Positions 29,468-51,600 of a stretch of 64,000 bases of DNA are shown here, in pieces. The DNA lies in the IMG/VR virus record IMGVR_UViG_2891407665_000020; one strand, 5' to 3'. Source of the DNA: an uncultured virus (IMG/VR IMGVR_UViG_2891407665_000020). Its lineage: Duplodnaviria; Heunggongvirae; Uroviricota; Caudoviricetes. The position numbers were made by a program, and so were the translations under genes. The notes beneath the pieces were generated by a model that saw nothing but the letters and a program-made list of their open reading frames with translations, did not search any database and was not told where the DNA came from. Each line of letters opens with the position of its first letter. The first letter of the stretch is position 1.

Positions 29468-29483
29468 TGAAGAGTGAGTAATC

Positions 29484-29518
29484 AAGAGTGTGCAGGTGAG
29501 AATCCTGCACACTCTTTT
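29484..29518 (+). terminator. Intrinsic terminator
   Basis: AAGAGTGTGCAGG-N7-CCTGCACACTCTT then TT. Confidence 0.75.
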
Positions 29519-29557
29519 AGATGGATAATAATAGTTCTAGTGGGAGGTGTTTTCTTT

Positions 29558-36069: not shown

Positions 36070-36084
36070 ATGTGAGGTAAAGCT

Positions 36085-36510: not shown

Positions 36511-36524
36511 TAGGAGGGCATGTT

Positions 36525-37385: not shown

Positions 37386-38622
37386 GAGTAAATTTATGAC
37401 ACTAGAAGATATGAGGGCATCTGATAGGTATGCCGACCTTTTTATACTCGCCAGATACTTTTACCGTATTGGCGAGCCAATTATGGATGATTATGAATAC
37501 GAAGAGTTATTGCTTAATGTAAGGAAGTGCTGCAGCCAGCAGATATCTGATTATCTGGACAGGACTTATGATGATGACCCGATACCATTAAAGCTGCTGA
37601 ATGAGATTGGCGTGGAGCCGATAAGCATTAAGCACGATGACAGCCGGGAAAGGCTGTTCCAGTATTTAAACTCAGAGAAGTCACTAAGCATCGATTCAGT
37701 AACTTCTTATGGGGAGGCTTATACTTTCTTTAGCAAGTACCGGGAAGAGAAGAAAGACCTGATGGTTTCTCTGAAGATGGATGGGGATAATGTGAAAACT
37801 TTATACCTGGACGGGAATCTTGAGCTTTCACTTTCACGCGGGCGTAATGCGGGAATTTCCTTTGACTTTACGGATACGGTTAAACGTGTGTTCCCCAATA
37901 GCATCATGAGCGTACCGCATGAATTGCGCATCTATGCAGAAGCATACGTGGAAGAGGATTACTTGGAGACTCTCCGTAGAAAATACAACCCCAATGGGTA
38001 TAAAACTTGCAAATCTGCAGCTATCTCCCTGCTGAGGGTACAGCATTCCAAGGAGGACTATGAGCATCTGCGTATCATAGTACATGGAATAGACGGCCTT
38101 GGAAGCAGTGTTTCTGAGGATTTCCAGGAAGCCGAGCAGAAAGGATTTAGCGTAGTCGAGCATAAACTTGTGCCATGGGAGGATATTCCAGTGGATAAAA
38201 CACAGTTCCGGGAATGGCTGAAGCGGGAGGTCTTTGATTATTTTGAGCAAAAGACAGATGGCGTCCCAAGTGATGGGATTGTTGTCGAAGTAAATGATAA
38301 AACTTATACAGGGATAACCGCAGGGCAGTATTCGAGCAGGCAGTTAGCTTTAAAGTTTGAACAATGGGCCTTTAAGGTGTACAAGGGGATTATAGAGGAT
38401 ATTATCTGGGAGCAGAAACGAGTTTTAGCATCCTGCCGTATACGGATAAAACCGATGCGTACCGATGACGGGTGCTCAGCAAACTGGATTAATGCATTCA
38501 ATTTTTCAATTGTTGTCAATGAAGGACTGGATAAAGGGAGTGAAGTGTACTATGTAAGGAACAGCGGCGCGGTGAATGTTCTAGTGTATGGGGTGGAATT
38601 GGACAGACTGCTTGGGAGGTGA
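37378..38622 (+). CDS. ligA: NAD-dependent DNA ligase, N-terminal half (domain Ia, adenylation domain, OB fold)
   Basis: YFYRIGEPIMDDYEYEEL (Ia), SLKMDG (motif I), SRG, YAEAY (III), DGIVVEV (IV), LALKF (V); no zinc finger, HhH or BRCT. Confidence 0.8.
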   Translation: MNRSKFMTLEDMRASDRYADLFILARYFYRIGEPIMDDYEYEELLLNVRKCCSQQISDYLDRTYDDDPIPLKLLNEIGVEPISIKHDDSRERLFQYLNSEKSLSIDSVTSYGEAYTFFSKYREEKKDLMVSLKMDGDNVKTLYLDGNLELSLSRGRNAGISFDFTDTVKRVFPNSIMSVPHELRIYAEAYVEEDYLETLRRKYNPNGYKTCKSAAISLLRVQHSKEDYEHLRIIVHGIDGLGSSVSEDFQEAEQKGFSVVEHKLVPWEDIPVDKTQFREWLKREVFDYFEQKTDGVPSDGIVVEVNDKTYTGITAGQYSSRQLALKFEQWAFKVYKGIIEDIIWEQKRVLASCRIRIKPMRTDDGCSANWINAFNFSIVVNEGLDKGSEVYYVRNSGAVNVLVYGVELDRLLGR

Positions 38623-39740
38623 GCGCTATGGAGCAGATTGATAATTTGATTGCTGAATTGAATGGGCTTTCTGTACATAATCCATTATACTTGCTTAAGA
38701 TTAATACTTTGATAAGCTTACTGCGGCAGGAGTCTGAGTCCAAGAACGCAAGGGCTAGCTACTACCGTAAAATCCTTATGTATCACAGGAATAAATACAA
38801 AGATCTGAAATTTTCTGTGATAGATATTGTGAACCGTGTAATCCGGCAGTACTCGGAATCTGCTTCCTCATTAGACTTGCCACTGAATGAGTACTTCGAG
38901 TGCCGCAAGCAGCTGTGCATTGCTTACAAGAAATTGTATGTAGAAGAGATGGACACACCTGAAACAGTCCGTAAGTTTCTAGCAGAGAAGCTCCAGGCAA
39001 TAAATGGACTTGCTTGCGACAACCAGAAGTTTTGGGACGATAACTTTTATCTCACTATTTTCGTAAGTGAGGCTAAGCGGTGCGGGTTACTGCAGATGGA
39101 TGTATGCAAGAATGAGCTGTCAAGATTCATACAGCTAAAAAAGCTTGCAATCAAGTTTAAATGCGAAATGTTCAATAGCATAGATCAAGACCTCATGAAG
39201 TGCTTTGGTGATAATGTTGTTATTTATGACCAGCTTGATGTTGAGAAGTTAAAAGCCTTGTACTGCTTTGTTACTGGCAACCCAATGACAGCGGCCGTTA
39301 ATAGCTTTATGGAAAAGATTTACTCGGAAGACAACCCATTGCGAATCAGGGCAGACGGGAGGGACAATGTCATTATTAATTTCATGTCCTATGTACATGG
39401 GATGGAGTTACCAGAGAATAATGTGCATCTTGTAAATTGCATTTATAATGATGAGCGTGTAATAGAGTATCTCCCGGCGCAGACAAAAAACAGGATAAGG
39501 TTTTTCCTTTATAATACGCTAAAGGCTGTGAGTGATGAAGCACTACAGTCTTTCGTAATGAATTATGTGCACGGCCAGGTTATGGAGACAGGTGGCAATA
39601 CTGCTGATATTTTCCGGAAATGCCTGGGCGGCGATGAAGTATTTGCGGAGAGCCTTGAGACTATTATTGCCAGGGTTGACAGTGTTTTAAAAAAGAGGAG
39701 GGGTATGAATGGGCATGTTACGAGTGAGGAGAAAGGATAA
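38619..39740 (+). CDS. Hypothetical protein
   Basis: 373-aa ORF, GTGA overlap, GGGAG RBS. Confidence 0.7.
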   Translation: MSAMEQIDNLIAELNGLSVHNPLYLLKINTLISLLRQESESKNARASYYRKILMYHRNKYKDLKFSVIDIVNRVIRQYSESASSLDLPLNEYFECRKQLCIAYKKLYVEEMDTPETVRKFLAEKLQAINGLACDNQKFWDDNFYLTIFVSEAKRCGLLQMDVCKNELSRFIQLKKLAIKFKCEMFNSIDQDLMKCFGDNVVIYDQLDVEKLKALYCFVTGNPMTAAVNSFMEKIYSEDNPLRIRADGRDNVIINFMSYVHGMELPENNVHLVNCIYNDERVIEYLPAQTKNRIRFFLYNTLKAVSDEALQSFVMNYVHGQVMETGGNTADIFRKCLGGDEVFAESLETIIARVDSVLKKRRGMNGHVTSEEKG

Positions 39741-39909: not shown

Positions 39910-40165
39910 TAGTAATGGCGCTACATACAGGGTAGAGGGAGAGCCTGATATTTATGTTAAGGATACTGATTTCCAGCGCATAGTAAACTCCCCGGCCGTT
40001 GTGCGTTGTATTCTGGAGAGGCTGGGGAAGCCAGCTGTCATCATCGAGAATTTAGGAAACGAAGTAGCAAACGGTGTTTATGATAATTACATTCCTATGG
40101 AAAACGAGGAGTTGGCGATGGAATATGGTGAAAATAGGGGGCTTGGTTTTTATGCAAAAATTTGA
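39884..40165 (+). CDS. Small hypothetical protein
   Basis: 93-aa ORF overlapping its neighbours. Confidence 0.55.
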   Translation: MVIMTVLLNSNGATYRVEGEPDIYVKDTDFQRIVNSPAVVRCILERLGKPAVIIENLGNEVANGVYDNYIPMENEELAMEYGENRGLGFYAKI

Positions 40166-40400
40166 TGATCTGGCTAGTGTATTTCAGAACACCACCCAGC
40201 AGAAGCCTGATGAGCAGTTAATACTGCTATGCCGTGTAGGTAAGATGTATGAACTTCCAATCGAGAAAGTAGCAGCTGCCTATAAGTGGATGCTTCTTCA
40301 TGGGGATTATGGGGAGGATTACAGGTTACTGCGAAGTGGCATGTCAGACCTCTATGGCGCTGATTTTATAGAGAGGATGGAGGAGAAATATGGGAAGTGA
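40152..40400 (+). CDS. Small hypothetical protein upstream of the RNA polymerase gene
   Basis: MQKFDDLASVF..., AGGGG RBS, overlaps the RNAP start. Confidence 0.55.
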   Translation: MQKFDDLASVFQNTTQQKPDEQLILLCRVGKMYELPIEKVAAAYKWMLLHGDYGEDYRLLRSGMSDLYGADFIERMEEKYGK

Positions 40401-43400
40401 TATTATGGCGAACAGGCAGAAGAGCCTATTTAACAATATGATTACCCAGCAGCTTCCACAATTGCTAAGTGACTATTCCGGCACAGATTTAGGGGACTTC
40501 CGCATTGATTTTGAGATGTTCCCTTTTTCGTCACGTGACGCCATTGAGAAAAATGGCACATTATGCGCTACAGTGAGGGCTGCTTGTACCGTTACCAGAA
40601 AAGCAACAGGAGAGAGTCATTGCTTCAATATTGATTTGTTGGATGTTCCTGTCTACACGGAAGCAGGCTTTAAGATTAAGAATAATTATATGCAGATTCT
40701 GGATTTATACAGCCGTACTACTGGTTGGAGTTTTTCCAGTGATTATTCTGATGGCGTGAATGATGATAAAAAGCAAGATTTTGATAAGCGGACAGCATCT
40801 TTAGTTGCTGTGGGAAAATCCTCAATAAAATTTTGTTATCAGAAGACCGGTGGTATTATCGTAAGGGTTAAGAACAAAGCTGTGCCTGTCAAGACATTCT
40901 TTAGGGCGCTATCGAATGTGTCCGGGGATGAACTTATTGAAATGTTTGGAATTGAGAATCCATTTATTGTGGATGCTTTATTATCCAGCAAGTCTAGTAC
41001 TGGGAGGATTGCGGATAACCACAGCCGGACTGAATGTATTGATTTTGTGTATAATATACTGCGCGGTGACTCGAAGCAGTCTGATGTTATAAAGAATACT
41101 TCTGTAAAACAGCAGGCGATTCAGGATGTATACTTTAACCAAAAGTATTTAAACCTCGGTAGAAATTACAGTGACAGGTTACAGCGTTCCATGTCTTTCC
41201 TGCTGAATGCTGAGGGGAAAGAGCTGGCAGAGGACGTCGTTTTAGAAGGGAGTGTCCTGCTTCCGCAAGGAACGATTCTGTCAAGCGATAAGCTGGTTGA
41301 ACTGGATAACCGTCCTATAAATCAGATAGCGGTTAAATCCAAAGGAAAGATCTTTTATTTAAGGAAATTTTCAAGCTTCACATTCCGTGTGCTTGGTTAC
41401 TCACTTTCAGAAGAATACTGCGGAATCCAGCCTGGAAAGAAATTAACACTATCAGATTTGGTAATACTGAACCAGTCCGAGTTAGACACCGTGAAGGTGC
41501 TGGATGGCTCAGGCAATACCAGGATAGTTAGGCGGCGTGTGCGGCCCAGGGTACTGGCAATGGAGGATCTGTATACAGTATTTAACCTTTATGCCAACCT
41601 CCTGAATGGGTATGACGTTTATGATAATCCCTATGAATTGACGAATAGGGTAGTGACCCCATTTAATAAAAAGATAGTCGAGATAATTGAGCGCAATTTG
41701 ATTAAGTATATTGGCCTCCTGGATAGGAACCTGAAGAAACTTAGTGAAGACGAATTTCTTTATGCGAAGATTGCAAAGACAACCTTCCAGCTCGATGAAT
41801 TTATTAAAGAAGCTGCGAACCCTGAAGATTCTGAAGCACAAATGTCGGACCTTAATAATGGGCTGCATTATATTAGCAAATGCTATAAGGTGACTACGGA
41901 TGTGAGGTCATCTGAGGCGACAGAGAAACTGCGCAGGGTGCAGGACTTGCAGCTTGGCAGGACGGATTCCATTGATTCACCGGAATCCAATAAGATTGGT
42001 TTAGTGCACCAGAGAACCCTTTTAGCAAAGGAGACTGATGAGGGCTATTTAACCGTGCCATACCTCCGCGTGAAGGATGGCATCGTTATGGATAAGCAGC
42101 CAGTTTATTTAAGCGCCCAGGAGGAAATTGGGAATTATATTGCTGAATGGGATGAAGAGTTTTTCCAGGAGGATGAATCTGGTTCACGTGTGCTAAAGCC
42201 ACGCATTAAAGCAAGGTATAATGGGAGCGTTGTTACCATAGAGACAAAGCGAGTGACATTAAAGGAGTACACGCAGATACAGAATATGTCGCCTGCACGT
42301 TCAACGATTCCATTTATGGGGAACTCTAATGCAAAAAGGCTTCTAATGGCCTGTAACCACCAAAAGCAGGCGGTTCCTGTAATTAAAGCACAAAGGCCAG
42401 TTGTCGGCACTGGGTGCGAGGCGATGTTGCCACTTGGGAATTACAGAGCAACCAGCGTGCTGCAAGATTATTATGAATCTACTGCCAGCATTTACCCAGG
42501 AATAAAGGAGTATAAGGATGTTATTCTTAATGGCAGTCTGTCCATAGATAAGGATGGGATACAGGAGCAGGAGAAAACCCGGCATGTAAAATTGATTGTG
42601 AACGAAGCAAAACAACTGGCACAGAATGGGAAGATTCAGTGTGATTACACGACTACAATCAGTATCCCATTCATGCAGAAAACCTCTGAAAAATCAGTAT
42701 TCTCCTTTAGGATACATCCTGCAAAAGACGGAGTGTACCGTGGGGATGCTATAATTGCTTCTGATATTTCTTTCTACCCTTTAGCGGACAGGAAAGTGAA
42801 TACAGTTGGGGACTATGGCGGTCTGGAGATGGATAAGGGCAGCGCAGAGCAGTCATACGGCCCAGGCGTCAATCTCGTAGTTGGGTATAAGACATACGAA
42901 ACGTCTACCATAGATGATGCTATCTGCATTTCCTCAAAGCTGGTATACGACGAGACATTGACTTCAATCACCATGGTGTCTAAGACCGTTGAGCTAAGAC
43001 AGCGTTCAGATAAGACTGAATCTTTTGGACTGCCGAGGGAACACGATTTTAAGAAATATAAACTGGATTACAGGGGTCTGGCCGCAGTAGGTGCAATGTT
43101 GAACCCGGGTGACGCCTATGCCTGCGTCATCGTAAGTTCCAGCGACAAGGTAACGGTCCAGTATAAGTTCCTGGATGAATACTCCTGTGGGCAGGTTATA
43201 TCGTCAGATATAAAGACGAAGGACAATAAGGTTTATGCAGAAATCATTATCGCCGCCAGGAGTGATATTGAGTGCGGTGACAAGATGTCCGGAAGGTGTG
43301 GTAATAAGGGTGTGGTAAGTAAAATTATACCTGAAGAAGAAATGCCTTATGACCCGGAAACCGGTCTTACGCTGGATGTAATCCTCAATCCGCTTGGAAT

Positions 43401-46400
43401 ACCTTCACGTATGAATATTACGCAGCTACTGGATTGTGCGTTAGCGCTTGCCATGAACCGGCAGAATGAGTATGTAAATATCGCTCCATACTATAAAGGC
43501 AGTATTGATTATGTGCGGGAGCAGACGGACAGGCAAGGTGTTAAGCCAATGATGCTTTGCGATGGCAGGACGGGAGAATTTTTTAAGCGGCCCGTGAATG
43601 TCGGCGTGCATTATATGTTTAAGCTGGTCCATATGGTGAAGAAGAAGGTTAATGCCATTTCACTTGAAGAGCCAATCGACCCTATTTTCCAGCAGCCTTT
43701 GAAAGGGCAGAAAAATGAGGGCGGGCAGTCGTTCGGTGAGATGGAGTCCTGGTGTCTGCAGGGAATCGGGGCAACAGGCGTATTGCAGACTACGTACAGC
43801 ACAGAGTCGGATGATATAGATAAGAAGCTTGAGCTGGAAGAGAGGCTATGTAACGGTGAGCTGGACGTAGATGTTATAGGGGAGAACAAGAACGATTTAG
43901 TCATGCAGACCTTCACAAGGTGTTTAGGCATTGATGTTGATTTAAGGGACGGCCTTTACACATTGAGGCCGCTCAGCGATACTAAGATACGCTCGCTTAA
44001 TGTGTACTCTGTTAATGACGAGAACGACTTACACAATCCTGCGATATTCGGCAGTGATGCGACCCCCAGGGACAAGATGGATGGGAAAGAAAAATGGAGT
44101 TATATTGATTTGCATACAGAAATCGTGTCTCCATTTTGGTTTAATAAGGGCATCCTGAACCGGTTAATAGCAGTGCGTGTCGTTACCTGCGCCAGTGATG
44201 GAAGCCATAAAATTTCCGCACCTACGATTGCACAAAGCGGCTTATTCTATTCACTCCTTCGGGGAGAAACGTTTGTAGGAAAGACGATAAGCGCCTGTGG
44301 GTATCCGACTATTTATAAGCCTGGCATCCCCGATATGCCATTGGATGTTATAACAGGGAACGAGGCGGTTATTTATGTTTTTAAGAACTATGACTTTAAT
44401 TCAACAGTCTCTGTGTATGAGGCGGAGATAGCGAAGAAGAAGAGCAGTATAACACCGGAAGAACAGGCAAGCAATAAAGAACTGCTTCGTATGCTAAAGT
44501 CTTATAACAGTTTAAAAAATAATATTGATGCCGGCATTGTCCCATCAGATTATGTAATCAGCGCTCTGCCTGTTATGCCACAGACATTTAGGCCTTTGAT
44601 GAAAGGCGGGGCACAGAGCAGGACGTCTGATTTTGACAAGTCGTATAAACAGATTTTAGCGGACGTGCGCAGTATCACGCAGGGTGTTACAGAAGCGAAT
44701 ACACTGGCGCTTTTACAGGATATAGAGCAGTTCCTTGGTTTCGAGAAACTTGCAAAACGCAATATTTCTTCAGACAAGGACAGGACAAACCTGATACGCT
44801 GGTTCACCGGGAGCGGGGACGAGAGTAATTCAAAGCACCATGGGAAAATCAGGGAAAACACATTAAGCAAGAAGATGTTCTGTTCTGGACGGTCTGTTAT
44901 TATTCCAACAGGGCTTCCTGATATGAAGCCTACTGAGGTAGGTATCCCGCTGTCCATGCTGGTCAAGTTATATAAACAGCCTTTAATTGGATATTTGTGT
45001 GAAGCATTCAGTATGCAGAAACATGGGAAGTTTATTTCGAAGAATGTGTGGCGCGCTTTATTCAATGCTGTAGGCGGAAGGCAGCCACAGAAGTTTATGG
45101 AGGTGTGGGATTCAAAGTTTGCAAGTAAAGCAATAGACCCATACAGTGAAACGAAAGAGAATTTGAAAGCAAGGGAAGCATATGACCTGGTAAGGAAATT
45201 GGTCATTCAGTATGTTGAAGAGGAAGGCGTTGTCGAGCTTGGCAGGCAGCCATCCCTGCACCAATTTAGCATAAAGGCATACCGCGTCAAAGCTGTCGAC
45301 ACTAAAGCCATACAGATTCATCCGCTTGTGTGTGGCGGATACAACGCTGATTTCGATGGCGATACTGTTTGGGTAAAAGCAATCCTTTCTGCGACTGCGA
45401 AAAAAGAAGCGCTGGAGAAGATGTCACCGGCGTCCGTGTTCAGGAACCCAAAGGATAGTTCCCTTGTATTAATGCCGGCACAGGATATTGCGCTTGGGTT
45501 GTATTGCGCGACAATGCTAAAGAATAATGTGTCAGATGTTTATGAGACGCCTGAGGTGCTTGGCGATATAAGGTATTACTCGGATACAGAGTCGCTGGCA
45601 AGCGATATAGACCTGGGGATTGCTGAATACTACACGCTCGTTGTTATCAGCCAGAACGGCAATTATTATTATGCAACTGCCGGCAGAATCTTATTTAATA
45701 GCTTAATCCCAGGCGGGTTCACCGACAGGCCATTTAGCAACGTCCTGCATCTCCCTATCCCGTGCAATGCAGCATTCAGGGATACGCATAACTTATGCGA
45801 CTTGGAATATGACGGCATCATTGCCGGCAAGGGAGGAACACGCAAGGATGTTGTATACTGCAAGCTGAGTAAGATATGTGAAAAGTTCGTAACCGAGCGC
45901 CCGGAGGATTGTATAGACATATACCAGGCTATTACAAAGTTTGGCTTCCACGCGAGCGACCTTAATTCTGTGACTCTCTCATTAGACGATATTAACGTCA
46001 GCATTATCCCAGATGAGTTACAACAGAGGGGGCAGCGTAAAAAAGACCTCCTCGCTGAAGAAAGAGATAAGGGCATTCTCAGCGAGAGCGAATACTTTAG
46101 GCTAAGCAAAGAGTTAAATTCCAATCTGGAAGAAGCGCTTGCCGGGGATATTAATGCTGCCAGTTGTAACGATTTGAAACATTCCTTGCTTGCGGATGCG
46201 GACAGGAAAAAAGAGCAGTTGGAAAATGCCTACCAGTTGGGGATAGTGCATGAGGAGGATAGGAAGAAGGGAATACAGAATCTGTATAAGGGAACCCTTG
46301 GAAAGATAAAAAGCGCACTCCCTGCTTCTATGGATAGGAATAATAATTTGTTCATTATCTATGACTCTGGGGCACGCGGGAATATAGGGCAGATTATGCA

Positions 46401-48648
46401 GACTACCGGCGCCATAGGAATCCTTCAGAAGACAAAATCTGAGAACATGGAAATGCCAGTCACCGGAAATTATGCAGAGGGAATAAGTTCCTTTGACACT
46501 TATATTACATCTTTCTCTGCACGTACCGGCGTCGCATCCACGCAGAATGAAACGCAGAATGCCGGGCATGCAACCAGGACGGCTGTTTATATGCTGGATG
46601 GTATTGATGTTGTAGAGGACGACTGCGGGAAGAAGAATTGGTGGTACGACGTACAATGGGGAGATTTTAAGAATGTTGTAAGGCTGAGGCCGTCAGATGC
46701 ATTTATAGAGCGGCATTTGGGCGGGAAGAGACTGGATTTCTCTGACAGGGAAACCTTTAAAGAATTCAGTGAGATTACCCCGGACGGCGAGATTACTGAC
46801 AATGTGCTTCAGTATTTAAGGCAAAAAGGGTTCTCCACATTAGTGCTAGCAGGACCGGATAAAGAACGGCATTATGTTGATATTTCCATTGATAGCATGA
46901 AAGGCGCGAAGGTAAGCGAGGATGACGAGGACAGCTTACGGGCGTTAAAAAACTACCTGAAAGGGAGAAAGATTACGAATGAGTGCCTTGGGATTATTGT
47001 GGCAGAAAAATTAAAACGTGTGCAAACCAATGATGGCGTGTATGAGCTGTATTACAGTCTTAACCCGGTAGTTGAAAGTCTGTTGCTAGGCAGGGAAGCA
47101 TCTGCCACGGAATTGGATGGACTCCCTGGTTTGCCATACCTCGAAGAGGTAGCTGACTGTAATGACCAATCAGGGAAAACGATAACGTGCATTACCCGCA
47201 AGACCCTTGATTATGTGGAGGAGAACAGGCTCGAGAGGATTCCGGCAAGGCTCTTATTAGACTGCCACTCGGTAGGGGGTGTGTGCGCACATTGTTATGG
47301 GCGAAGGTACACAGATGGGACAATCCCCAAAGTAGGTTCAAATGTTGGCATTGAAGCGGCGCAGTCACTTGGGGAGCCAAGTGCACAGCTTACCATGTCA
47401 CTGTTCCATACAGGTGGCGCTGCAGGAACCAGCATTGCCGGTGGCGTAGAAATACTTTCGCATCTGCTGAGTGGCTCAAAGCCTGGTGGTTCTAATTCAG
47501 AGACTGCCACGGTAGCCCCGCATAATGGGTACGTAAAGCTGATCAAGCTTGACTCTAAGGATATTGGCTTTGTTATTCCGGAGAAGCAGGACTGTACGAT
47601 GTGCGCTAAATGCCGCACAGAGAATGCAGGGTGCCCAATTGATAGCGGGCTTTATGGAAATGCCGCATGTAAGCTGCAACAGAAGTTAGACAGCACAACA
47701 ATCATAGTGAAAGACGGCCAATACGTAAAGCATGGGGAGTCTATCACAGATGGCTATGTAATGCCAAATTCAATAGTAAGGTGCCAGGGGTATTCGGATG
47801 AGGAAGTTTTGCGGAAAAAGCAGATTGTGTGGATGATGGCATACTTCGATACATTCCGCAGCAATGGGATTGATATTAATGCCCGGCACTTTGAGATCTT
47901 GGCGAGGTGCCAGAATTTGCTGGTTACTATCGTTGACAAAGGCAACACGAATTTAGAGGTCGGGAAGACTTACGAGTTCTCTGAGCTTATGCGCAATTAC
48001 CTGCCGGAGGATTTAGCAAGTACGCAGTATTATATGGCGACTTCTGATAAGTATGAGGTCGTCACACATTTCAGCGGTCCTATGGCAATGCTTACATTTG
48101 AGAATGTGGCAGAGCAGGCCGCCGTATTTGCGAATAGCGTATACAGCTCATCCACAACGTCGTTAATTGGCAGTTCCTTTGTTGGGAATAATTTGATTCT
48201 GGATGAGAAGAAAACACTAAAACAGCCAGTCATTGTGAACCGGGCGTTTGAGGATAATCCTTTCTTTGATTCCGATGAGGATTTCAACCAGGAGAGTGAG
48301 GCTATCGAAGTGGTGCATGGGCTTGAGGACACAAGTCTGGATTTAGGGGAATTAGACTTTACTGGGCTTGATACAATGCTGGATGACAGTAATGCCTTTG
48401 GTACTAGCGCCACCGATGAGGAGCCGGGCGCGGCTGACAATCTTGACAGCGATACGCAGGAGCCCTGCCTGGACACAGCGGATGCCGTGGATGCAGCTAA
48501 GGATACTATTGATGATATGGGTGTTGTGGAGGATGTGGATACATTCGGGGGTGTGGATCTGATCGACAGTCTCTTTACAGATTCAGACTCCGCGGATGCG
48601 CCGCATGATGAGGATGATGTACAGCTTGAAGATCTTTCATTCTTTTAA
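40390..48648 (+). CDS. rpoBC: Divergent DNA-directed RNA polymerase, fused beta-beta' subunits
   Basis: beta motifs RLLMACNHQKQAVP, GDKMSGRCGNKGVVS, NPLGIPSRMN, GGQSFGEME; beta' motifs RQPSLH, YNADFDGD, SGARG, VCAHCYG, AAQSLGEPSAQLTMSLFHTGG; one frame, no stop; acidic tail. Confidence 0.95.
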   Translation: MGSDIMANRQKSLFNNMITQQLPQLLSDYSGTDLGDFRIDFEMFPFSSRDAIEKNGTLCATVRAACTVTRKATGESHCFNIDLLDVPVYTEAGFKIKNNYMQILDLYSRTTGWSFSSDYSDGVNDDKKQDFDKRTASLVAVGKSSIKFCYQKTGGIIVRVKNKAVPVKTFFRALSNVSGDELIEMFGIENPFIVDALLSSKSSTGRIADNHSRTECIDFVYNILRGDSKQSDVIKNTSVKQQAIQDVYFNQKYLNLGRNYSDRLQRSMSFLLNAEGKELAEDVVLEGSVLLPQGTILSSDKLVELDNRPINQIAVKSKGKIFYLRKFSSFTFRVLGYSLSEEYCGIQPGKKLTLSDLVILNQSELDTVKVLDGSGNTRIVRRRVRPRVLAMEDLYTVFNLYANLLNGYDVYDNPYELTNRVVTPFNKKIVEIIERNLIKYIGLLDRNLKKLSEDEFLYAKIAKTTFQLDEFIKEAANPEDSEAQMSDLNNGLHYISKCYKVTTDVRSSEATEKLRRVQDLQLGRTDSIDSPESNKIGLVHQRTLLAKETDEGYLTVPYLRVKDGIVMDKQPVYLSAQEEIGNYIAEWDEEFFQEDESGSRVLKPRIKARYNGSVVTIETKRVTLKEYTQIQNMSPARSTIPFMGNSNAKRLLMACNHQKQAVPVIKAQRPVVGTGCEAMLPLGNYRATSVLQDYYESTASIYPGIKEYKDVILNGSLSIDKDGIQEQEKTRHVKLIVNEAKQLAQNGKIQCDYTTTISIPFMQKTSEKSVFSFRIHPAKDGVYRGDAIIASDISFYPLADRKVNTVGDYGGLEMDKGSAEQSYGPGVNLVVGYKTYETSTIDDAICISSKLVYDETLTSITMVSKTVELRQRSDKTESFGLPREHDFKKYKLDYRGLAAVGAMLNPGDAYACVIVSSSDKVTVQYKFLDEYSCGQVISSDIKTKDNKVYAEIIIAARSDIECGDKMSGRCGNKGVVSKIIPEEEMPYDPETGLTLDVILNPLGIPSRMNITQLLDCALALAMNRQNEYVNIAPYYKGSIDYVREQTDRQGVKPMMLCDGRTGEFFKRPVNVGVHYMFKLVHMVKKKVNAISLEEPIDPIFQQPLKGQKNEGGQSFGEMESWCLQGIGATGVLQTTYSTESDDIDKKLELEERLCNGELDVDVIGENKNDLVMQTFTRCLGIDVDLRDGLYTLRPLSDTKIRSLNVYSVNDENDLHNPAIFGSDATPRDKMDGKEKWSYIDLHTEIVSPFWFNKGILNRLIAVRVVTCASDGSHKISAPTIAQSGLFYSLLRGETFVGKTISACGYPTIYKPGIPDMPLDVITGNEAVIYVFKNYDFNSTVSVYEAEIAKKKSSITPEEQASNKELLRMLKSYNSLKNNIDAGIVPSDYVISALPVMPQTFRPLMKGGAQSRTSDFDKSYKQILADVRSITQGVTEANTLALLQDIEQFLGFEKLAKRNISSDKDRTNLIRWFTGSGDESNSKHHGKIRENTLSKKMFCSGRSVIIPTGLPDMKPTEVGIPLSMLVKLYKQPLIGYLCEAFSMQKHGKFISKNVWRALFNAVGGRQPQKFMEVWDSKFASKAIDPYSETKENLKAREAYDLVRKLVIQYVEEEGVVELGRQPSLHQFSIKAYRVKAVDTKAIQIHPLVCGGYNADFDGDTVWVKAILSATAKKEALEKMSPASVFRNPKDSSLVLMPAQDIALGLYCATMLKNNVSDVYETPEVLGDIRYYSDTESLASDIDLGIAEYYTLVVISQNGNYYYATAGRILFNSLIPGGFTDRPFSNVLHLPIPCNAAFRDTHNLCDLEYDGIIAGKGGTRKDVVYCKLSKICEKFVTERPEDCIDIYQAITKFGFHASDLNSVTLSLDDINVSIIPDELQQRGQRKKDLLAEERDKGILSESEYFRLSKELNSNLEEALAGDINAASCNDLKHSLLADADRKKEQLENAYQLGIVHEEDRKKGIQNLYKGTLGKIKSALPASMDRNNNLFIIYDSGARGNIGQIMQTTGAIGILQKTKSENMEMPVTGNYAEGISSFDTYITSFSARTGVASTQNETQNAGHATRTAVYMLDGIDVVEDDCGKKNWWYDVQWGDFKNVVRLRPSDAFIERHLGGKRLDFSDRETFKEFSEITPDGEITDNVLQYLRQKGFSTLVLAGPDKERHYVDISIDSMKGAKVSEDDEDSLRALKNYLKGRKITNECLGIIVAEKLKRVQTNDGVYELYYSLNPVVESLLLGREASATELDGLPGLPYLEEVADCNDQSGKTITCITRKTLDYVEENRLERIPARLLLDCHSVGGVCAHCYGRRYTDGTIPKVGSNVGIEAAQSLGEPSAQLTMSLFHTGGAAGTSIAGGVEILSHLLSGSKPGGSNSETATVAPHNGYVKLIKLDSKDIGFVIPEKQDCTMCAKCRTENAGCPIDSGLYGNAACKLQQKLDSTTIIVKDGQYVKHGESITDGYVMPNSIVRCQGYSDEEVLRKKQIVWMMAYFDTFRSNGIDINARHFEILARCQNLLVTIVDKGNTNLEVGKTYEFSELMRNYLPEDLASTQYYMATSDKYEVVTHFSGPMAMLTFENVAEQAAVFANSVYSSSTTSLIGSSFVGNNLILDEKKTLKQPVIVNRAFEDNPFFDSDEDFNQESEAIEVVHGLEDTSLDLGELDFTGLDTMLDDSNAFGTSATDEEPGAADNLDSDTQEPCLDTADAVDAAKDTIDDMGVVEDVDTFGGVDLIDSLFTDSDSADAPHDEDDVQLEDLSFF

Positions 48649-48676
48649 TAATGGCGAAAAGGGGCAATCGTAATGA

Positions 48677-51600
48677 ATGCCCCTTTCGAGCGGAAAGACA
48701 ATTAGCAGACTGGAGGTTGCTATGCTACTAAGTGAGTTAAGAAAAGACACATTGCCTATAGGGAAAGTGCAATTTGTTCTCGCAATCATTATAGGTGATA
48801 AAGCTGGCGCAGCGTTAGAGGGAGAGGCATTAAAGATTAGTACTTCTACGCTGAGATACTATGTTGAAGAGAAACAGAAGCAGACCAAGGGGAATGTTGA
48901 TATTGTGCGGACCGTGATTGAATGCGTGGCTACACAGCCAGTCATCAGCCAGGGCAGGAGGCAGTGTAATATTTACGAGTATGGCAGGTACGGCAATACT
49001 CGCAGCTCTTTGTGTATATCAGAAGAGGAACTGTATAAGGCGGTAATGCGTGTACTCCGTGATTACAGTAATGAGCGCTGCCTGTCTTTGTTTGCGGATT
49101 CACCTTATGCAAAGGAGAAAGTGCTGAAAGCCATAAAAAACAATTACGTGGCATTCACAGGGGACGTCAACCCTACCCCCGCCAAATTGAATGCAATCTT
49201 CAACGATCTGAAGGATAAGCAGATTAACAGGTATAGCAGCGACTACGTGTTTTCCTCTAACCATGATAATCCGGTAGGGTGGCTGATTAAGGCGCTGGAG
49301 TTCTTTAGCAAGAACAGGACATTTTACACAAACAGGGCAAACGAGAGAAATCAGGACCAGATTATTGGGAGCGATAGGGGATCTACCCAGATGGAACTGG
49401 TCGCTATGGAGAATAGGAAAGAAAAGATTAATATTGATTTCCCGTCTGTTGTAAGTGATATTGCCCTTGCCTCTCAGCTACTTTATGTCCATAAAAACAA
49501 TACAGAGGCTTACTCCGATATTTATACGCATTATGTCAATAAAAAAGCCAATGAGGTGCGCGAGGCCATCTTCCGCAGCCTGGGGACCAAGGCATCCCTT
49601 TATAGTATAGTGAACAGATGGGATCCTGTAATAGTCGGCGCAAGCCATGTCAATAACAAAAAGAACAGCAGGGATAATATTGCAAAGGTAATGGAGATGC
49701 TTGTGGACAACCCAATTGCGGTGTCTGAGGTCTCTAAACTTTATAAGAAAGTATTACAGGTTAATGAGAATATACACCTGAACAGAGAGGGTACCATTAA
49801 GGATGGGATGCGCCTGTTCGACTCCAAGGATGTGAGCGTGCGTTCGAAGATGAGGAACGGTGAACGGTTTGAGATTCTTTACAAGGGCTATGTTGCGCTG
49901 GCGAATTTCATCAGATACCTTAATTCAAGGGATATATCGCTGTTTAGCATTCCGACAGAGATCTTTAGGAATATAAAACTTCCCAGACGCTTTTATTCAT
50001 TGGATGAGTATTTAAAGCTTGGAAGTACAGTAGCCCAGCTAGTGCAAGACGTGGACAGGGATGCTGAACGATCCAAACAGGTTGTAAACGGGATGTGGAA
50101 TAATGATGCTTTGTTTGATTCGATATCCTTACAGCTTTCAGGTGAAGCCGCGACTATACAGAACTTCCTAAGAAATTCCTGCACACTTGGGGATATTAAA
50201 ACGGCAATCGATAATGTGGAGCGTCGAAAGAAATGTGCGGCTTTCGACCAGCAGGCTTTTGTGCTGTACGAGAAGTATAAGCCTGAAATGTCCTATTTTA
50301 TGATAGGTGTTATTGGGGATAAGGCTGCTGGTAAGCGGTCAGTGACTCTCCTCGACAGGCAGGAGGAAATGGACGCATTTAAACAGCGGTCAGATTCAAT
50401 ACAGAAGTCCCACGGTGATGCATACAGGATTTATAAATTCCCGTTTTATCCTGGGGCTGAGGATTATGTCAGTTACACTGACCCATTTAGCGTAGGCCTG
50501 GACAGCGCGGAAGCAAGGAAAGATTTTATAGGTAAGTACCGGAACTGCCTTAATTGGGTAGAAGCTTCAATCATAAACACAGGGACGTTTGAGCAGCAGA
50601 GTTTGGGAACCCTGCGTGGGCTTCATTTTTATTTTATGCTAGCAATTTATAACTTTGACTCTTACAAGAATCTCACAGAGAATAAAGAGCGTGTAAGGAT
50701 GAAGTTAAGCAGATGTTACGTGCACTTGCTAGAAGCGTTAATGGAGAAAGAAGGGCATCCGGTTAAGAGGAACCATCTTTATGCCATACGGGGCAGGAGC
50801 ATAGCCGACCAGTTCTCGTATTTATTGGAAGGGTGCGACACTGAGGAGAAAGAAAAGTCTGCACTCCGGGAGATTAAGTACCGGGAGTTTGCAATTTCTT
50901 TCTGTGCAGATGCATTGCTTGCCCACCCGGCAAGGAACGACTGGGAGAAATTAAGGGATTTGTTTATCTCAGTTTCGGTTTATGAGAAGCTGTGGCTGAA
51001 TTTGCTGAATGCACTAGTTACCATTTGTAATGCAAAGAGAGAGTTTCTTACAGATGCAGAATTGGATAAAAAACTCCACAGCATGAATGAATACCGCAAA
51101 TTTATGAATGACGGGGCATTTGGGGCATTAGTGCGTTCTACAGCATTCTCTAACCTGTACAAGTTGAATAAACCTATTATGTCTATTAACGATATTCCAT
51201 TCCTATGGGAGATAGATACATACAGTGTCGTAGAGAATGACGCTTTCTATGCAAATGCAGGGAAGCATGGGAATACCGTGATTGTGGATACTGTCAATAA
51301 GTTCATAAACAGATACCCAGATATTTTTGAGTACTTCCGTATACTCGATGAGCAAATAAGCATACAGATAAGGCCAGGGCTTGAGCACGCAGCCTTTAAT
51401 GCAGGTACTGACGCGGAGTGTGGGGTACTCGAGGAAGCTGCACGCTCTTTACGTGAAACTAAGGATTTCATTAAAAGATTCGGAAACAGCCTCACTGGAA
51501 AGATTAGCGCGATGCTGCACACAGCTGTGTGCGATAAGGATGGATACCTTATGCTATTCAATAAGAGGTATTCCGTGGACACAGCCGATAGCCTGAACTA

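What the first reader, a model, noticed from the sequence alone, without database searches (positions are those of the whole stretch)
40390..48648. Element-encoded single-chain beta-beta' RNA polymerase
Seen: the complete ordered beta motifs run directly into beta' motifs in one 2752-aa ORF (junction near 43945, ...CLGIDVDL-RDGLYTLRPLS...). The catalytic NADFDGD (45343-45363), bridge helix and trigger loop are recognisable but heavily diverged. Neighbours are polA, ligase and unknown genes, not ribosomal protein genes. Known: natural rpoBC fusions occur in Helicobacter and Wolbachia housekeeping enzymes, whereas phiKZ-like phages split these subunits further. Inference: this is a second, non-housekeeping transcription machine carried by a giant Bacillota-associated element.
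Basis: partly seen in the sequence, partly recalled or inferred. Interest (0 to 1): 0.88.

Follow-up and report, generated by a model that had tools for sequence, protein, structure and literature searches.

The report
Giant gut element's own RNA polymerase
A large mobile DNA element integrated in the chromosome of a mouse-gut Clostridia bacterium carries its own RNA polymerase, with the two big catalytic subunits fused into one 2,752-residue protein that belongs to a widespread family I could not find described in print.

Summary
Window 40390..48648 (+) is one open frame of 2752 aa. A complete, collinear beta part runs straight into a beta' part at residue 1186 (nt 43945), and NADFDGD lies at 45343-45363.

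It is not a housekeeping enzyme:
- It scores far below every NCBIfam rpoB, rpoC and rpoBC cut-off.
- It forms its own clade outside all sampled bacterial beta and beta' sequences.
- It sits in a conserved module (ligase-like gene, small ORF, RNAP, unknowns, PolA).

In the nearest held genome the element is integrated in the chromosome, spans at least 145 kb and begins at a large serine recombinase. It also encodes replication proteins, a GreA homologue, a sigma-70-family protein, TubZ, ParA, a sortase and giant adhesins. No virion genes were recognised.

About 75 protein clusters of this fused family exist in gut metagenomes, but I found none in the plasmid or phage collections, and no paper describes it.

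The family has lost the beta' zinc ribbon and has a shortened, divergent clamp coiled-coil. It has gained a long acidic C-terminal tail that ends in a conserved ...[MLI][SDN][L/A/F/I]F-COOH tip, which resembles the host's own sliding-clamp-binding motifs.

Activity, promoter and initiation factor are untested.

The parts
40390..48648 (+). Single-chain beta-beta' RNA polymerase gene (2752 aa, P0001)
   Evidence: ORF. Ordered Rpb2 then Rpb1 Pfam domains. Collinear with Bacillus RpoB and RpoC. Own clade in the trees.
40390..43944 (+). Beta-like part (residues 1-1185). It is complete but lacks about the last 49 residues of a Bacillus-type beta.
   Evidence: Indel map against L077 RpoB: 1060 aligned residues, 25.6% identity. 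Rpb2_6 E 4.6e-57. GDKMSGRCGNKG motif read, with invariant D964 K965 G971 N972 K973.
43945..48186 (+). Beta'-like part (residues 1186-2599)
   Evidence: 1095 residues aligned to L077 RpoC, 23.4% identity. Rpb1_2, Rpb1_4 and Rpb1_5 above cut-off.
44056..44058 (+). Site of the lost beta' N-terminal zinc ribbon (deletion after about residue 1223)
   Evidence: 24 residues of Bacillus beta' (L077 ORF positions 72-95) have no counterpart, and the region read holds no cysteines. That these residues are the zinc ribbon is my recollection of Bacillus beta' numbering.
44575..44841 (+). Clamp coiled-coil region (residues 1396-1484), shortened by about 8 residues at the tip, with the canonical RRVINRNNRLKRL stretch replaced
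   Evidence: Alignment block of 7 family members against 3 Bacillota beta' sequences.
45343..45363 (+). Catalytic NADFDGD (residues 1652-1658)
   Evidence: Coordinates. N, A, D, D, G and D are invariant in 35 aligned family members.
46666..47175 (+). Family-specific insertions (about 140 aa in all, residues 2093-2262) between the cysteines of the second zinc site
   Evidence: Four insertions of 39, 48, 23 and 29 aa against L077. C2079, C2292, C2299 and C2302 are invariant.
48187..48633 (+). Acidic low-complexity C-terminal tail (153 residues after G2599, including the 4-residue tip listed next; 46 D+E, 5 K+R)
   Evidence: Tail statistics for 35 family members: 3-270 aa long (87-270 without the truncated P0044), and 13-34% D+E in 34 of them.
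48634..48645 (+). C-terminal tip LSFF-COOH, the family-conserved [MLI][SDN][LAFI]F end
   Evidence: 63 of 75 family representatives end in F, against 0 of 80 canonical beta' and 0 of 80 viral homologues. The host MutS carries QMSLF and the host DinB-like protein QLSLF.
40074..40400 (+). Small conserved ORF that overlaps the polymerase start (probably about 81 aa, starting at the internal Met)
   Evidence: Homologues lie directly upstream of the polymerase gene in 12 related loci, E 1.2e-9 to 2.2e-4. Alignment. No family hit.
37378..38622 (+). NAD-ligase-like gene (adenylation domain), a conserved upstream neighbour
   Evidence: PF01653 9.1e-7. phrog_3869 2.8e-26. Homologues at 36-52% identity upstream of the polymerase in 23 of 29 related loci.
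38619..39740 (+). Unknown 373-aa gene between the ligase-like gene and the small ORF
   Evidence: No family hit. A gene of 246-385 aa sits at the same position in relatives, without detectable similarity.
48677..51703 (+). Unknown 1008-aa gene, a weakly conserved downstream neighbour
   Evidence: 21-28% identity to the 730-997-aa genes downstream of the polymerase in relatives. No family or Atlas lead.
51935..52729 (+). Unknown 264-aa gene that overlaps the PolA start, conserved
   Evidence: Homologues in relatives, E 1e-10 to 8e-34.
52726..56751 (+). Family A DNA polymerase (1341 aa), a conserved downstream neighbour
   Evidence: PF00476 1.2e-28. 32-44% identity over about 1250-1410 residues in 18 of the 19 related loci with a full-length match; the 19th, L224, aligns 33% over 984.
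56732..57415 (+). Unknown 227-aa gene, conserved (33-53% identity over 90-170 aa)
36525..37385 (+). Sortase of the element
   Evidence: PF04203 3.4e-9. A homologue lies upstream of the ligase-like gene in L214, L215, L217 and L219.
22244..29467 (+). 2407-aa surface adhesin (7 T-Q ester domain stretches plus SpaA). It is the first gene of the block that is 99.5% identical to G001.
   Evidence: PF18202 3.4e-185. Window 21899-64000 matches C1 288461-246354 at 99.53%.
29474..30358 (+). ParA-type partition ATPase of the element
   Evidence: PF10609, PF01656 and PF13614.

Best explanation
The gene encodes the catalytic core of a dedicated, element-owned RNA polymerase. It is a complete bacterial-type beta fused head-to-tail to a beta', so the two double-psi barrels that form the active site are made as one chain and need no assembly from separate subunits.

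It is an ancestral core gene of a family of very large mobile elements of gut Clostridia. Here the element spans at least 145 kb and is integrated next to a large serine recombinase. Related copies lie on contigs of 260-670 kb. These elements also bring their own replication genes: PolA, a DnaB-like helicase, primase parts, a clamp-loader-like protein and a ligase-like protein.

Most likely the enzyme transcribes the element's long one-directional operons independently of the host polymerase. It would be helped by an element-encoded Gre-type cleavage factor and would start with an initiation factor that is not the host's primary sigma.

Shown: the fusion, the intact catalytic motifs, the non-housekeeping placement, the conserved module and the integrated setting. 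Inferred: catalytic activity, which genes it transcribes, and independence from the host sigma.
For: Fusion and motifs:
- One ORF with ordered beta then beta' domains, collinear over 1060 + 1095 residues with Bacillus RpoB and RpoC.
- NADFDGD, the four cysteines of the second zinc site and the beta D964/K965/G971/N972/K973 residues are invariant in 35 members.
- A trigger-loop-like LGEPSAQLTMSLFHTGG, with its His, was read.

Not housekeeping:
- It scores below all curated cut-offs.
- The family is one clade (SH-aLRT 99 for beta', 100 for beta) outside a clade of all sampled bacterial sequences (100 and 92).
- Family plus Bacillota held together is rejected (AU p 0.0131).
- All 12 congeners have a normal rpoB and no fusion.
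- The fusion was found in 1 of 401 genomes of the order and 1 of 399 of the class.

Core gene of the elements:
- The ligase-like gene lies upstream in 23 of 29 related loci, and PolA lies downstream in 19 of 29, at only 24-36% polymerase identity.
- The small ORF that overlaps the polymerase start is conserved in 12 loci.

Element setting:
- G001 contig C1 1-142 kb holds host genes (flagella, MutSL, MreBCD, the his operon, L21, Obg).
- From the serine recombinase at C1:143087-144769 onward there is a one-strand block. It holds TubZ, a sigma-70-family gene, DnaB-like, GreA-like, clamp-loader-like, FEN, RecJ-like, UvrD, FtsK/EssC-like and PolA genes, the polymerase, a sortase and adhesins.
- The GreA homologue keeps the GDLxEN acidic tip.

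- The beta' zinc ribbon is deleted.
- The clamp coiled-coil is shortened and its canonical surface replaced.

Presence in RNA libraries:
- Contigs of three metatranscriptome runs from two studies cover all 30 bins of 36001-56000.
Against: - No activity, transcript start or promoter was shown. The tool itself warns that contigs from RNA libraries do not prove transcription.
- No element-specific promoter motif emerged from the 26 intergenic regions. Sigma-70-like sites are no commoner than in shuffles (28 against 31.7).
- The element's sigma has detectable homologues in only 2 clusters and lies next to a transposase fragment, so it may be an accessory gene or may serve the host polymerase.
- The trees are 'quick' searches with very long family stems (0.7 and 1.94). 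Fast evolution after capture from a Bacillota host could mimic a deep position, and the AU test shares that weakness.
- The canonical rpoBC of this very host was not seen.
- The element's right end and its mode of transfer are unresolved.
Confidence: 0.75

Rival explanations
1. The element is a giant temperate virus (a jumbo prophage) whose virion genes are too divergent to recognise. The fused enzyme is its non-virion polymerase for middle or late genes, as in phiKZ/AR9-type phages or SPbeta's YonO.
For: - The serine-recombinase integration, size, TubZ/PhuZ-like tubulin (phrog_17961 4.4e-36, phrog_4733), own replication set, sigma (phrog_351) and HNH genes are all common in large phages.
- Most of the element's genes, including the largest ones, have no family hit.
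- All well-studied element-encoded multisubunit-type polymerases known to me belong to viruses (PMC7598289 and PMC7481178, passages).
Against: - None of the 97 proteins scanned with PHROGs, and none of the element ORFs scanned with Pfam, hits a capsid, portal or terminase. The only tail hits are weak (E about 1e-6 to 1e-7) and lie on a hydrolase, an NlpC/P60 protein and an unknown 485-aa ORF.
- No close relative was listed among the best 80 IMG/VR loci kept, nor among INPHARED phages.
- A sortase, LPXTG-type giant adhesins and a SipW/TasA-like module are plasmid- or ICE-like cargo. The Hodor megaplasmid preprint says sortases had not been reported in phages (PMC12934698, passage).
Confidence: 0.2
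2. The enzyme's main job is replication rather than gene expression. It would make primer or R-loop RNA for the element's PolA, and it is tied to the replisome through its C-terminal tip.
For: - The tight, conserved synteny of ligase-like gene, polymerase and PolA holds across the family.
- The conserved C-terminal [MLI][SDN][LAFI]F-COOH tip on a long acidic tether occurs in 63 of 75 representatives. It resembles the host's clamp-binding motifs QMSLF (MutS) and QLSLF (DinB-like).
- A clamp-loader-like gene lies in the element.
Against: - The element also has DnaG-type primase parts: a CHC2 zinc ribbon, Toprim_2 and a DnaB-like helicase.
- A 300-kDa full beta-beta' enzyme with a Gre factor is more than priming needs.
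- The Q of the canonical clamp motif is absent from the family tip.
- Binding could not be tested.
Confidence: 0.1
3. It is the host's housekeeping polymerase, the only RNA polymerase of the genome, in a lineage with a natural rpoBC fusion as in Helicobacter or Wolbachia.
For: The nearest held genome G001 shows no other match to PF00562, PF00623, TIGR02013 or TIGR02386.
Against: - G001 is 94% complete in 110 contigs. rplL sits about 320 bp from the end of contig C94, and the essential rpsL is missing too, so the rpoB-rpoC-rpsL stretch is simply not assembled.
- All 12 congeners have a normal rpoB and lack the fusion.
- Scores are 8-12 times below the cut-offs of the fusion models.
- The neighbours are element genes, not rplL or rpsL.
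- The gene lies in a block that is 99.5-100% identical between two genomes whose flank is only 98% identical.
Confidence: 0.02
4. It is a decaying or inactive relic of a captured rpoBC operon.
For: It is very divergent: 23-26% identity to Bacillus subunits.
Against: - The frame is open in 75 clusters down to 24% identity, and the catalytic residues are invariant.
- The exact sequence occurs on 14 contigs, and related clusters have up to 1569 members.
Confidence: 0.02

Closest known systems
Housekeeping RpoB-RpoC fusions (NCBIfam NF007172 / PRK09603 and NF011417 / PRK14844; that these are the Helicobacter and Wolbachia types is my recollection)
   Same: One polypeptide with complete beta followed by complete beta', joined where the beta C-terminus meets the beta' N-terminus.
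   Different: - It scores 425.5 and 400.1 bits against cut-offs of 5372 and 4632.
- It is not in the rplL-rpoBC-rpsL context.
- It is a second polymerase on a mobile element.
- It lacks the beta' zinc ribbon and carries an acidic tail with a conserved C-terminal tip.
Multisubunit-type polymerases of Caudovirales found in metagenomes (mReC, Weinheimer and Aylward 2020, PMC7481178; abstract and two passages read), and the fused or split forms in IMG/VR loci L116-L195
   Same: They are virus- or element-borne beta/beta' homologues that Pfam recognises and that branch outside cellular bacteria. 43 of the IMG/VR loci are also single-ORF fusions.
   Different: - They form separate clades in both trees.
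- They score 60-160 bits to P0001 halves, against 200-280 bits for bacterial subunits.
- 0 of 80 viral ORFs end in F.
- Whether those IMG/VR loci are mReC was not tested.
Non-canonical multisubunit polymerases of jumbo phages (phiKZ, AR9; review PMC7598289, passages read)
   Same: They are a second, host-independent transcription machine brought by a very large element, without alpha or omega homologues.
   Different: Those enzymes are split into 4-5 polypeptides and belong to virions or lytic phages. This one is a single chain in an integrated element with no recognised virion genes.
YonO of prophage SPbeta (PMC5467207, passages read)
   Same: It is a polymerase related to the multisubunit enzymes, encoded by a large element integrated in a Bacillota chromosome. 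That SPbeta is about 134 kb and integrates by a serine recombinase is my recollection.
   Different: YonO is about 100 kDa and shares only the two barrels with cellular enzymes. P0001 is collinear with full-length beta and beta'.
crAss-like phage fused polymerase (as described in PMC7481178, passages)
   Same: Beta- and beta'-like parts lie in one protein of a gut element.
   Different: Per that paper, the crAss enzyme has no sequence homology detectable with the COG0085 and COG0086 models. P0001 hits Rpb2_6 at 4.6e-57.
Phage T4 late transcription, in which the sliding clamp gp45 binds C-terminal tips of gp33 and gp55 on the polymerase (recalled, not read here)
   Same: This is a works-like lead only: a short hydrophobic C-terminal tip on a transcription protein docks on a DNA-tracking clamp, and the element encodes a clamp-loader-like protein.
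   Different: Here the tip is on the catalytic subunit itself. No element clamp was found, and binding is untested.

Membership tests
Two-barrel (multisubunit-type) RNA polymerase superfamily | Beta' barrel with the metal-binding NADFDGD motif, and the beta barrel/hybrid-binding domain (Rpb2_6) | tested here: met
   NADFDGD at residues 1652-1658, invariant in 35 members. Rpb2_6 194.3 bits, Rpb1_2 76.8 bits and Rpb1_5 79.9 bits, all above cut-off.
Bacterial housekeeping RpoB (TIGR02013) and RpoC (TIGR02386) | Whole-protein score at or above the curated equivalog cut-off | tested here: not met
   326.6 against 801.15, and 381.3 against 963.5.
Bacterial housekeeping RpoB and RpoC | Branches within the bacterial clade near its host's phylum | tested here: not met
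   The family lies outside a clade of 40 (beta', SH-aLRT 100) or 24 (beta, 92) bacterial rows. Union with Bacillota is rejected, AU p 0.0131. These are quick trees with long stems, so a fast-evolving captured copy is not fully excluded.
Bacterial housekeeping RpoB and RpoC | Genomic context rplKAJL-rpoB-rpoC-rpsL (recalled as the usual order) | tested here: not met
   The neighbours are a ligase-like gene, unknown genes and PolA. In G001, rplL lies on another contig, C94.
Housekeeping beta/beta' fusion (NF007172, NF011417) | Score at or above the curated cut-off | tested here: not met
   425.5 against 5372, and 400.1 against 4632.
Jumbo-phage split multisubunit polymerases | Beta and beta' split into several polypeptides, encoded by a phage with virion genes | tested here: not met
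   The protein is a single chain. No capsid, portal or terminase hit among the 97 proteins scanned with PHROGs.
IMG/VR viral fused beta-beta' group | Same clade in beta and beta' trees | tested here: not met
   The viral fused rows form their own branch (11 rows, SH-aLRT 94; 4 rows, 100).
YonO-like and crAss-like single-chain polymerases | Similarity to cellular subunits confined to the two barrels | tested here: not met
   Collinear alignment over 1060 + 1095 residues.
Integrative and conjugative element | Site-specific recombinase at one end of an inserted block | tested here: met
   A 560-aa Resolvase + Recombinase + Zn_ribbon_recom protein at C1:143087-144769 borders the host genes.
Integrative and conjugative element | Type IV secretion ATPase (VirB4 type) and relaxase | tested here: inconclusive
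   Neither was hit in Pfam, NCBIfam or PHROGs. The scans did find an FtsK/EssC-like ATPase, a GspE/PilB-like ATPase and an NlpC/P60 protein. Many large ORFs remain unknown.
Beta sliding-clamp-binding motif (QL[SD]LF; consensus recalled) | Pentapeptide Q-L-[SD]-L-F in a disordered or terminal segment | tested here: inconclusive
   The last four positions fit: position -4 is M, L or I in 54 of the 63 representatives that end in F, -3 is S, D or N in 43, -2 is L, A, F or I in 48, and -1 is F in all 63. Q is not among the common residues at -5 to -8. The host's own motifs are QMSLF and QLSLF.
Beta sliding-clamp-binding motif | Physical binding to DnaN | not testable with these tools

The most novel reading that the evidence does not exclude
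The family's conserved C-terminal tip, (L-x-x-)[MLI]-[SDN]-[LAFI]-F-COOH at the end of an 87-270-residue acidic tether, is a docking peptide for the DNA sliding clamp or another replisome hub. If so, this single-chain polymerase is physically leashed to replicating element DNA. Transcription of the element (or RNA priming for its PolA) would then be coupled to replication, the logic of phage T4 late transcription but built into the catalytic subunit of a non-viral giant element. Together with the lost zinc ribbon and the remodelled clamp helices, this would be a new way of directing a bacterial-type polymerase to its template without the host sigma.
Probability: 0.25. Interest if true: 0.85.

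Novelty: new variant of a known kind. Interest (0 to 1): 0.72.

Why it matters
Until now, polymerases of the cellular (two-barrel) type that are encoded by mobile DNA have been studied almost only in phages. Here a full-length, single-chain beta-beta' enzyme is a core gene of very large integrative elements of gut Clostridia, alongside their own replication set, a Gre factor, segregation genes and surface adhesins. Such elements would be unusually autonomous: they carry replication and transcription of their own.

The family is abundant in gut metagenomes, with clusters of up to 1569 member sequences. Yet it is nearly absent from the sampled species genomes (1 of 401 in the order, 1 of 399 in the class), and no close relative turned up in the plasmid and phage collections, so it has escaped notice.

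A one-gene bacterial-type core polymerase with its own factors is also attractive as an orthogonal transcription system and as a natural experiment on which parts of the bacterial enzyme are dispensable: the zinc ribbon, separate subunits, and perhaps alpha and omega. The conserved C-terminal docking tip gives a directly testable hypothesis on how it is recruited.

Tried and rejected
- Own genome: not held. I used the nearest genome, G001, instead.
- Reading beyond +-10 kb in related metagenome records: those records are not held. I therefore could not check whether relatives carry the sigma, the GreA homologue or the serine recombinase, or whether the 261-269 kb contigs are circular.
- Element promoter search: the first script timed out. 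The second found only AT-rich words barely above shuffles; the best, TGCTTTTTT, occurs in 12 regions against a shuffled maximum of 9. The sigma-70 and terminator scan was at chance level.
- AU test on the full 78-row set: it did not finish in three calls. I reran it on 36 rows.
I did not try it any other way.
- ESM Atlas look-up for the 1008-aa neighbour: no usable hit, and the model has low confidence.
- Homologue searches for the sigma and for a 223-aa gene near the clamp-loader-like gene: 2 clusters each. That is too few for an alignment or a fold, so the idea that the 223-aa or 212-aa genes encode a clamp stays untested. The two are not paralogues.
- The roughly 155-aa gene just after the polymerase in relatives looked like a candidate subunit. 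It is an HNH-type nuclease with a hydrophobic tail and is absent from this element.
- Hodor megaplasmids (PMC12934698): these are sortase-bearing gut megaplasmids, but 'RNA polymerase' occurs 0 times in the text. They are a different thing.
- Iyer and Aravind 2012 (PMC3769190), the most likely place for an earlier mention, is not held.
- Earlier findings of this scan: nothing relevant.
- No description of this family appeared in eight answered literature searches.

Full report
**1. The observation**

The ORF listing gives one ORF, 40390..48648 on the + strand, starting with ATG and 2752 aa long (translation). A GGAGGAG ribosome-binding sequence lies just upstream of the ATG.

Pfam places the beta domains first: Rpb2_3 (just under its cut-off), Rpb2_45, Rpb2_6 at E 4.6e-57, and Rpb2_7. 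The beta' domains follow: Rpb1_1 and Rpb1_3 (weak), then Rpb1_2, Rpb1_4 and Rpb1_5.

The fusion is not an assembly error. Contigs of three RNA-library runs and one DNA run bridge nt 43945, with no insertion or deletion listed inside the gene. In addition, 75 protein clusters (P0002-P0076, 100% down to about 24% identity, 1880-3027 aa) carry both sets of domains in one chain.

A seed alignment with Bacillus stercoris RpoB and RpoC (locus L077) shows that the protein is collinear with both full subunits. It aligns over 1060 residues at 25.6% identity and over 1095 residues at 23.4%. The beta lobes that Pfam misses are therefore present.

**2. It is not a housekeeping polymerase**

- Thresholds. 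NCBIfam scores are far below the curated cut-offs: rpoB 326.6 against 801.15, rpoC 381.3 against 963.5, and the two housekeeping beta/beta' fusion models 425.5 against 5372 and 400.1 against 4632.
- Beta' tree. This tree had 78 rows and 909 columns (IQ-TREE with the PMSF C20 model, quick search). I used 20 of the 35 aligned family members, 40 of 64 full-length bacterial pairs, 11 of 43 viral fused ORFs and 7 of 33 viral split ORFs. The family is one side of a branch (SH-aLRT 99). All 40 bacterial rows form a clade that excludes it (100), and Bacillota are a clade inside that (97).
- Beta tree. This tree had 40 rows and 825 columns and included four RpoB sequences from the host's order. It agrees: family 100, bacteria 92, Bacillota 96. 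The host-order sequences nest beside Thermoclostridium.
- Constraint test. On a 36-row, 561-column set, the best tree that holds the family and Bacillota together is 30.5 log-likelihood units worse (AU p 0.0131).
- Caveat. The family stems are very long (0.7 and 1.94 changes per site), the searches were 'quick', and the program warns of long-branch joins. 'Outside bacteria' may partly reflect fast evolution.

**3. Does the host have its own rpoBC?**

The window's own assembly is not held. The nearest genome, G001, shares 85% of the window's sampled words. It is 3.9 Mb in 110 contigs and 94% complete.

G001 shows only the fused gene for PF00562, PF00623, TIGR02013 and TIGR02386. This is an assembly gap. 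rplL lies at C94:5795-5995, and that contig ends near 6319, just where rpoB should follow. The essential rpsL is absent as well, although it was found in all 14 control genomes.

All 12 other genomes of the genus and all 8 further genomes of the order carry a canonical rpoB in an open frame of about 1270-1360 aa where it is uncut. None of them shows the fusion. With P0001 as query at E <= 1e-100, the fusion was found in 1 of 401 genomes of the order and in 1 of 399 scored genomes of the class. In both cases the one genome was G001.

**4. The element**

Mapping to G001:
- Window 21899-64000 equals G001:C1:288461-246354 at 99.53% identity, and 44001-64000 is 100% identical.
- Window 16-11499 matches at only about 98%.
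- Window 11.5-20.3 kb has no counterpart in G001. This stretch is low in G+C and holds STAND NTPase, Mrr-AAA, ATP-grasp and GT2 genes.
- Window 20293-21787 matches at 87.5%.

Contig C1 is 310,254 bp and has no tRNA gene. Its first 142 kb are plainly chromosomal. They hold the flagellar regulon, MutS/MutL, MreBCD, MinCD, RodA, SepF, a his operon, L21, Obg, RNase G and RecU.

At C1:143087-144769 lies a 560-aa large serine recombinase. From there to at least 288.5 kb nearly every ORF is on one strand: 110 of the 112 ORFs called between 140 and 300 kb. Of these element ORFs, few have a family hit. The hits are:
- Surface and secretion: two SpaA-domain giants, a SipW-type signal peptidase with a TasA-like protein, an S26 peptidase, an NlpC/P60 protein and a GspE/PilB-like ATPase.
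- Segregation: TubZ.
- Transcription: a sigma-70-family protein (TIGR02937, 69.5 bits against a cut-off of 42.9) and a full-length GreA homologue (80.4 bits, under the cut-off of 139; acidic tip GDLREN kept).
- Replication and repair: a CHC2 zinc ribbon, Toprim_2, an Hsp70-like protein, a DnaB-like helicase, an SNF2 helicase, a clamp-loader-like protein, a 5'-3' exonuclease, a RecJ-like protein, UvrD, a second PolA-like gene and an RNase T-like exonuclease.
- Possible DNA transfer: an FtsK/EssC-like ATPase.
- The window's own genes: PolA, the polymerase, the ligase-like gene, a sortase, a transglutaminase-like gene, a BspA-type LRR protein, ParA and the 2407-aa T-Q-ester adhesin.

None of the 97 element proteins scanned with PHROGs hits a capsid, portal or terminase. 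No VirB4 or relaxase was found either.

I therefore call it an integrated giant element of at least 145 kb whose vehicle is unresolved. A conjugative or plasmid-like element seems more likely than a virus. The left end is set by the recombinase and the host flank. The right end is only suggested, by the drop in identity near window 21.9 kb.

**5. The polymerase is a core gene of a family of such elements**

A metagenome scan with the distant relative P0178 (34% identical) returned 40 loci. I examined 29 of them (L197-L225) for their neighbours.
- A homologue of the ligase-like gene lies 1.5-3 kb upstream in 23 of 29 loci.
- A PolA homologue (32-44% identity, over about 1250-1410 residues in 18 loci and over 984 in L224) lies downstream in 19 of 29, plus one cut locus. 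Between it and the polymerase lie homologues of the 1008-aa and 264-aa genes, and the 227-aa gene follows.
- Most of the remaining loci appear to be cut by contig ends, though I did not check each one.
- Many of the 29 loci are near-identical copies. By polymerase length there are at least six kinds.
- The small ORF that overlaps the polymerase start (window 40074-40400) has homologues in the same place in 12 loci (E 1.2e-9 to 2.2e-4).

These contigs reach 670 kb. Five that hold the P0178 type are 260.8-268.8 kb long. In four of them a contig end lies 9-12 kb upstream of the gene, and in the fifth 40 kb upstream. This hints at a replicon of about 265 kb, but I could not test it.

Distribution:
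- The exact P0001 sequence occurs on 14 contigs. Sister clusters have 553, 816, 969 and 1569 member sequences.
- The only names found are automatic ones, such as 'Bifunctional DNA-directed RNA polymerase subunit beta-beta' [uncultured Clostridium sp.]'.
- The gene itself is held by 20 listed runs from 12 studies of mouse gut or faeces.
- PLSDB plasmids and INPHARED phages gave only matches of about 22-34% identity, mostly to ordinary or phage rpoB/rpoC genes and none covering 80% of the query.
- In IMG/VR, none of the 80 loci kept is close (best-segment identity 22-37%). However, 43 of those loci carry other single-ORF beta-beta' fusions.

**6. How the enzyme differs from the bacterial core**

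Compared with Bacillus:
- The last roughly 49 residues of beta and the first roughly 21 of beta' are gone at the joint.
- Two short beta' N-terminal segments are deleted. One of them I recognise from memory as the zinc ribbon, and the region holds no cysteines.
- There are inserts of 56 aa (residues 1870-1925) and of about 140 aa in all (2093-2262). The latter lie between the invariant cysteines C2079 and C2292/C2299/C2302.
- The chain continues 117 residues past the Bacillus beta' end.

The clamp coiled-coil is the docking site for sigma region 2 in bacterial enzymes (recalled). Here it is present but about 8 residues shorter at its tip, and its canonical basic face is replaced in all seven family members shown.

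From these points I infer, but have not shown, that the host's primary sigma does not serve this enzyme. The element's own sigma is a candidate. However, the word-seeded search found homologues in only 2 clusters. An unrelated element gene gave the same poor yield, so this says little either way.

**7. The C-terminal tail**

After the last conserved residue (G2599) every member has a tail, all but one of them low-complexity and acidic. The tails are 87-270 aa long in 34 of 35 aligned members and contain 13-34% D+E. P0001's tail is 153 aa with 46 D+E and 5 K+R.

- 63 of 75 cluster representatives end in phenylalanine, and 42 of 75 match [MLIV]x[LIFMV]F at the very end. Several of the 12 exceptions carry the same motif 1-4 residues from the end.
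- Among the 63, position -4 is M, L or I in 54, position -3 is S, D or N in 43, and position -2 is L, A, F or I in 48.
- 80 of 81 further full-length cluster members also end in F. By contrast, 0 of 80 canonical beta' and 0 of 80 viral ORFs do.
- Typical ends are ...TMSLF, ...AMSLF, ...SMDLF and ...TINLF. P0001 ends in ...EDLSFF.

The host's MutS carries QMSLF in its disordered C-terminal region (residue 854). A host DinB-like polymerase carries QLSLF. I recall these as the sliding-clamp-binding motif QL[SD]LF.

The family tip shares the last four positions with that motif but lacks the Q. Only 3 of 111 element ORFs and 4 of 157 other C1 ORFs match the loose pattern [MLIV]x[LAFIMV]F within two residues of the end, so it is not a general feature of the element.

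G001 has a normal dnaN (269 bits) and a second, weak one on another contig. Neither is on the element. I therefore keep 'clamp- or replisome-docking tip' as the boldest reading the data allow, not as the main claim.

**8. Expression**

Contigs assembled from three metatranscriptome libraries (two studies) cover all 30 bins of window 36001-56000 at 99% identity or better for most pieces. The tool warns that DNA can be present in such libraries. I take this as a hint of transcription, not as proof.

**9. Literature**

Eight answered searches found no description of this family.
[quoted passage not shown] From the YonO paper (PMC5467207, passages), I take these to be the YonO-like single-barrel-pair proteins.
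- The source they cite (Iyer and Aravind 2012, PMC3769190) is not held. An earlier mention there cannot be excluded.
- The Hodor gut megaplasmids (PMC12934698, passages) share sortases and giant surface proteins, but the text never mentions an RNA polymerase.

**10. Verdict**

The gene is a new, well-populated and phylogenetically separate family of full-length single-chain beta-beta' polymerases. It forms the core of giant integrative elements of gut Clostridia.

I rate it a new variant of a known kind (mobile-element-encoded multisubunit-type polymerases). Open questions are its initiation factor, its promoters, the element's vehicle and the role of the conserved C-terminal tip.

Noticed in passing
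window 11500-20300: A low-G+C block (30-35%) with STAND-type NTPase, ATP-grasp, Mrr_cat-AAA and GT2 genes follows a XerC/D-like integrase (10410-11324). It has no counterpart in G001, where a shorter, different stretch sits. It looks like a variable defence-type island at the edge of the element.
   Followed up: partly
window 7947-9521: A 524-aa ORF with Schlafen AlbA_2 and GmrSD_N domains (defence-like), next to an M78/IrrE-type peptidase gene (6337-7149).
   Followed up: no
window 1-765 and G001:C1 304-310 kb: DUF4116 repeat proteins occur as several 75-85% identical paralogous stretches near the end of contig C1. The contig ends inside this repeat zone.
   Followed up: no
L116-L195 (IMG/VR): 43 viral loci encode beta and beta' homologues in a single ORF (about 1388-3596 aa). 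In 33 more the two best matches lie in separate ORFs, mostly a beta'-like ORF of about 900 aa followed by a beta-like ORF of about 1000 aa. The sampled rows of the two groups (11 and 7) form separate clades from the family studied here.
   Followed up: partly
L197 18654-19118 and the same position in L206, L209, L211, L215, L220, L222, L224, L225: Directly after the polymerase gene, relatives carry a conserved gene of about 155 aa. It has an HNH-type motif (CxxC...VDHIxP...CxxCNxxKS) followed by a hydrophobic, membrane-like tail. It is absent from the window and from G001:C1 (best hit E 0.034).
   Followed up: partly
contigs behind L197, L199, L200, L201, L202: Five independent assemblies give contigs of 260.8-268.8 kb for the P0178-type element. 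In four of them a contig end lies 9-12 kb upstream of the polymerase gene. This may be a complete replicon of about 265 kb, but end overlaps could not be read.
   Followed up: partly
G001:C1 146213-154133 (L021 6213-14133): The element carries a SipW-type signal peptidase, a SipW-dependent TasA/BsaA-like protein and a 1568-aa SpaA-domain protein. Together they look like a biofilm-matrix or pilus-like module.
   Followed up: no
G001:C22:26565-27614 (L244 1501-2562): A second, divergent DnaN-like gene (118.8 bits, below the cut-off of 137.65) lies on another contig of G001, possibly on another mobile element.
   Followed up: no
G001:C1 about 100-110 kb: The GC skew changes sign near 105 kb and the genes converge there, next to a tyrosine integrase (102118-103194) and lexA. 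This looks like a replication terminus. The element lies about 38 kb away, oriented with the replication arm.
   Followed up: no
window 22244-29467: The 2407-aa adhesin holds 7 T-Q ester-bond domain stretches plus a SpaA domain. The 176 mismatches between the window and G001 over 21899-64000 all fall before 44001, since 44001-64000 is 100% identical. Whether they cluster in the adhesin was not checked.
   Followed up: no
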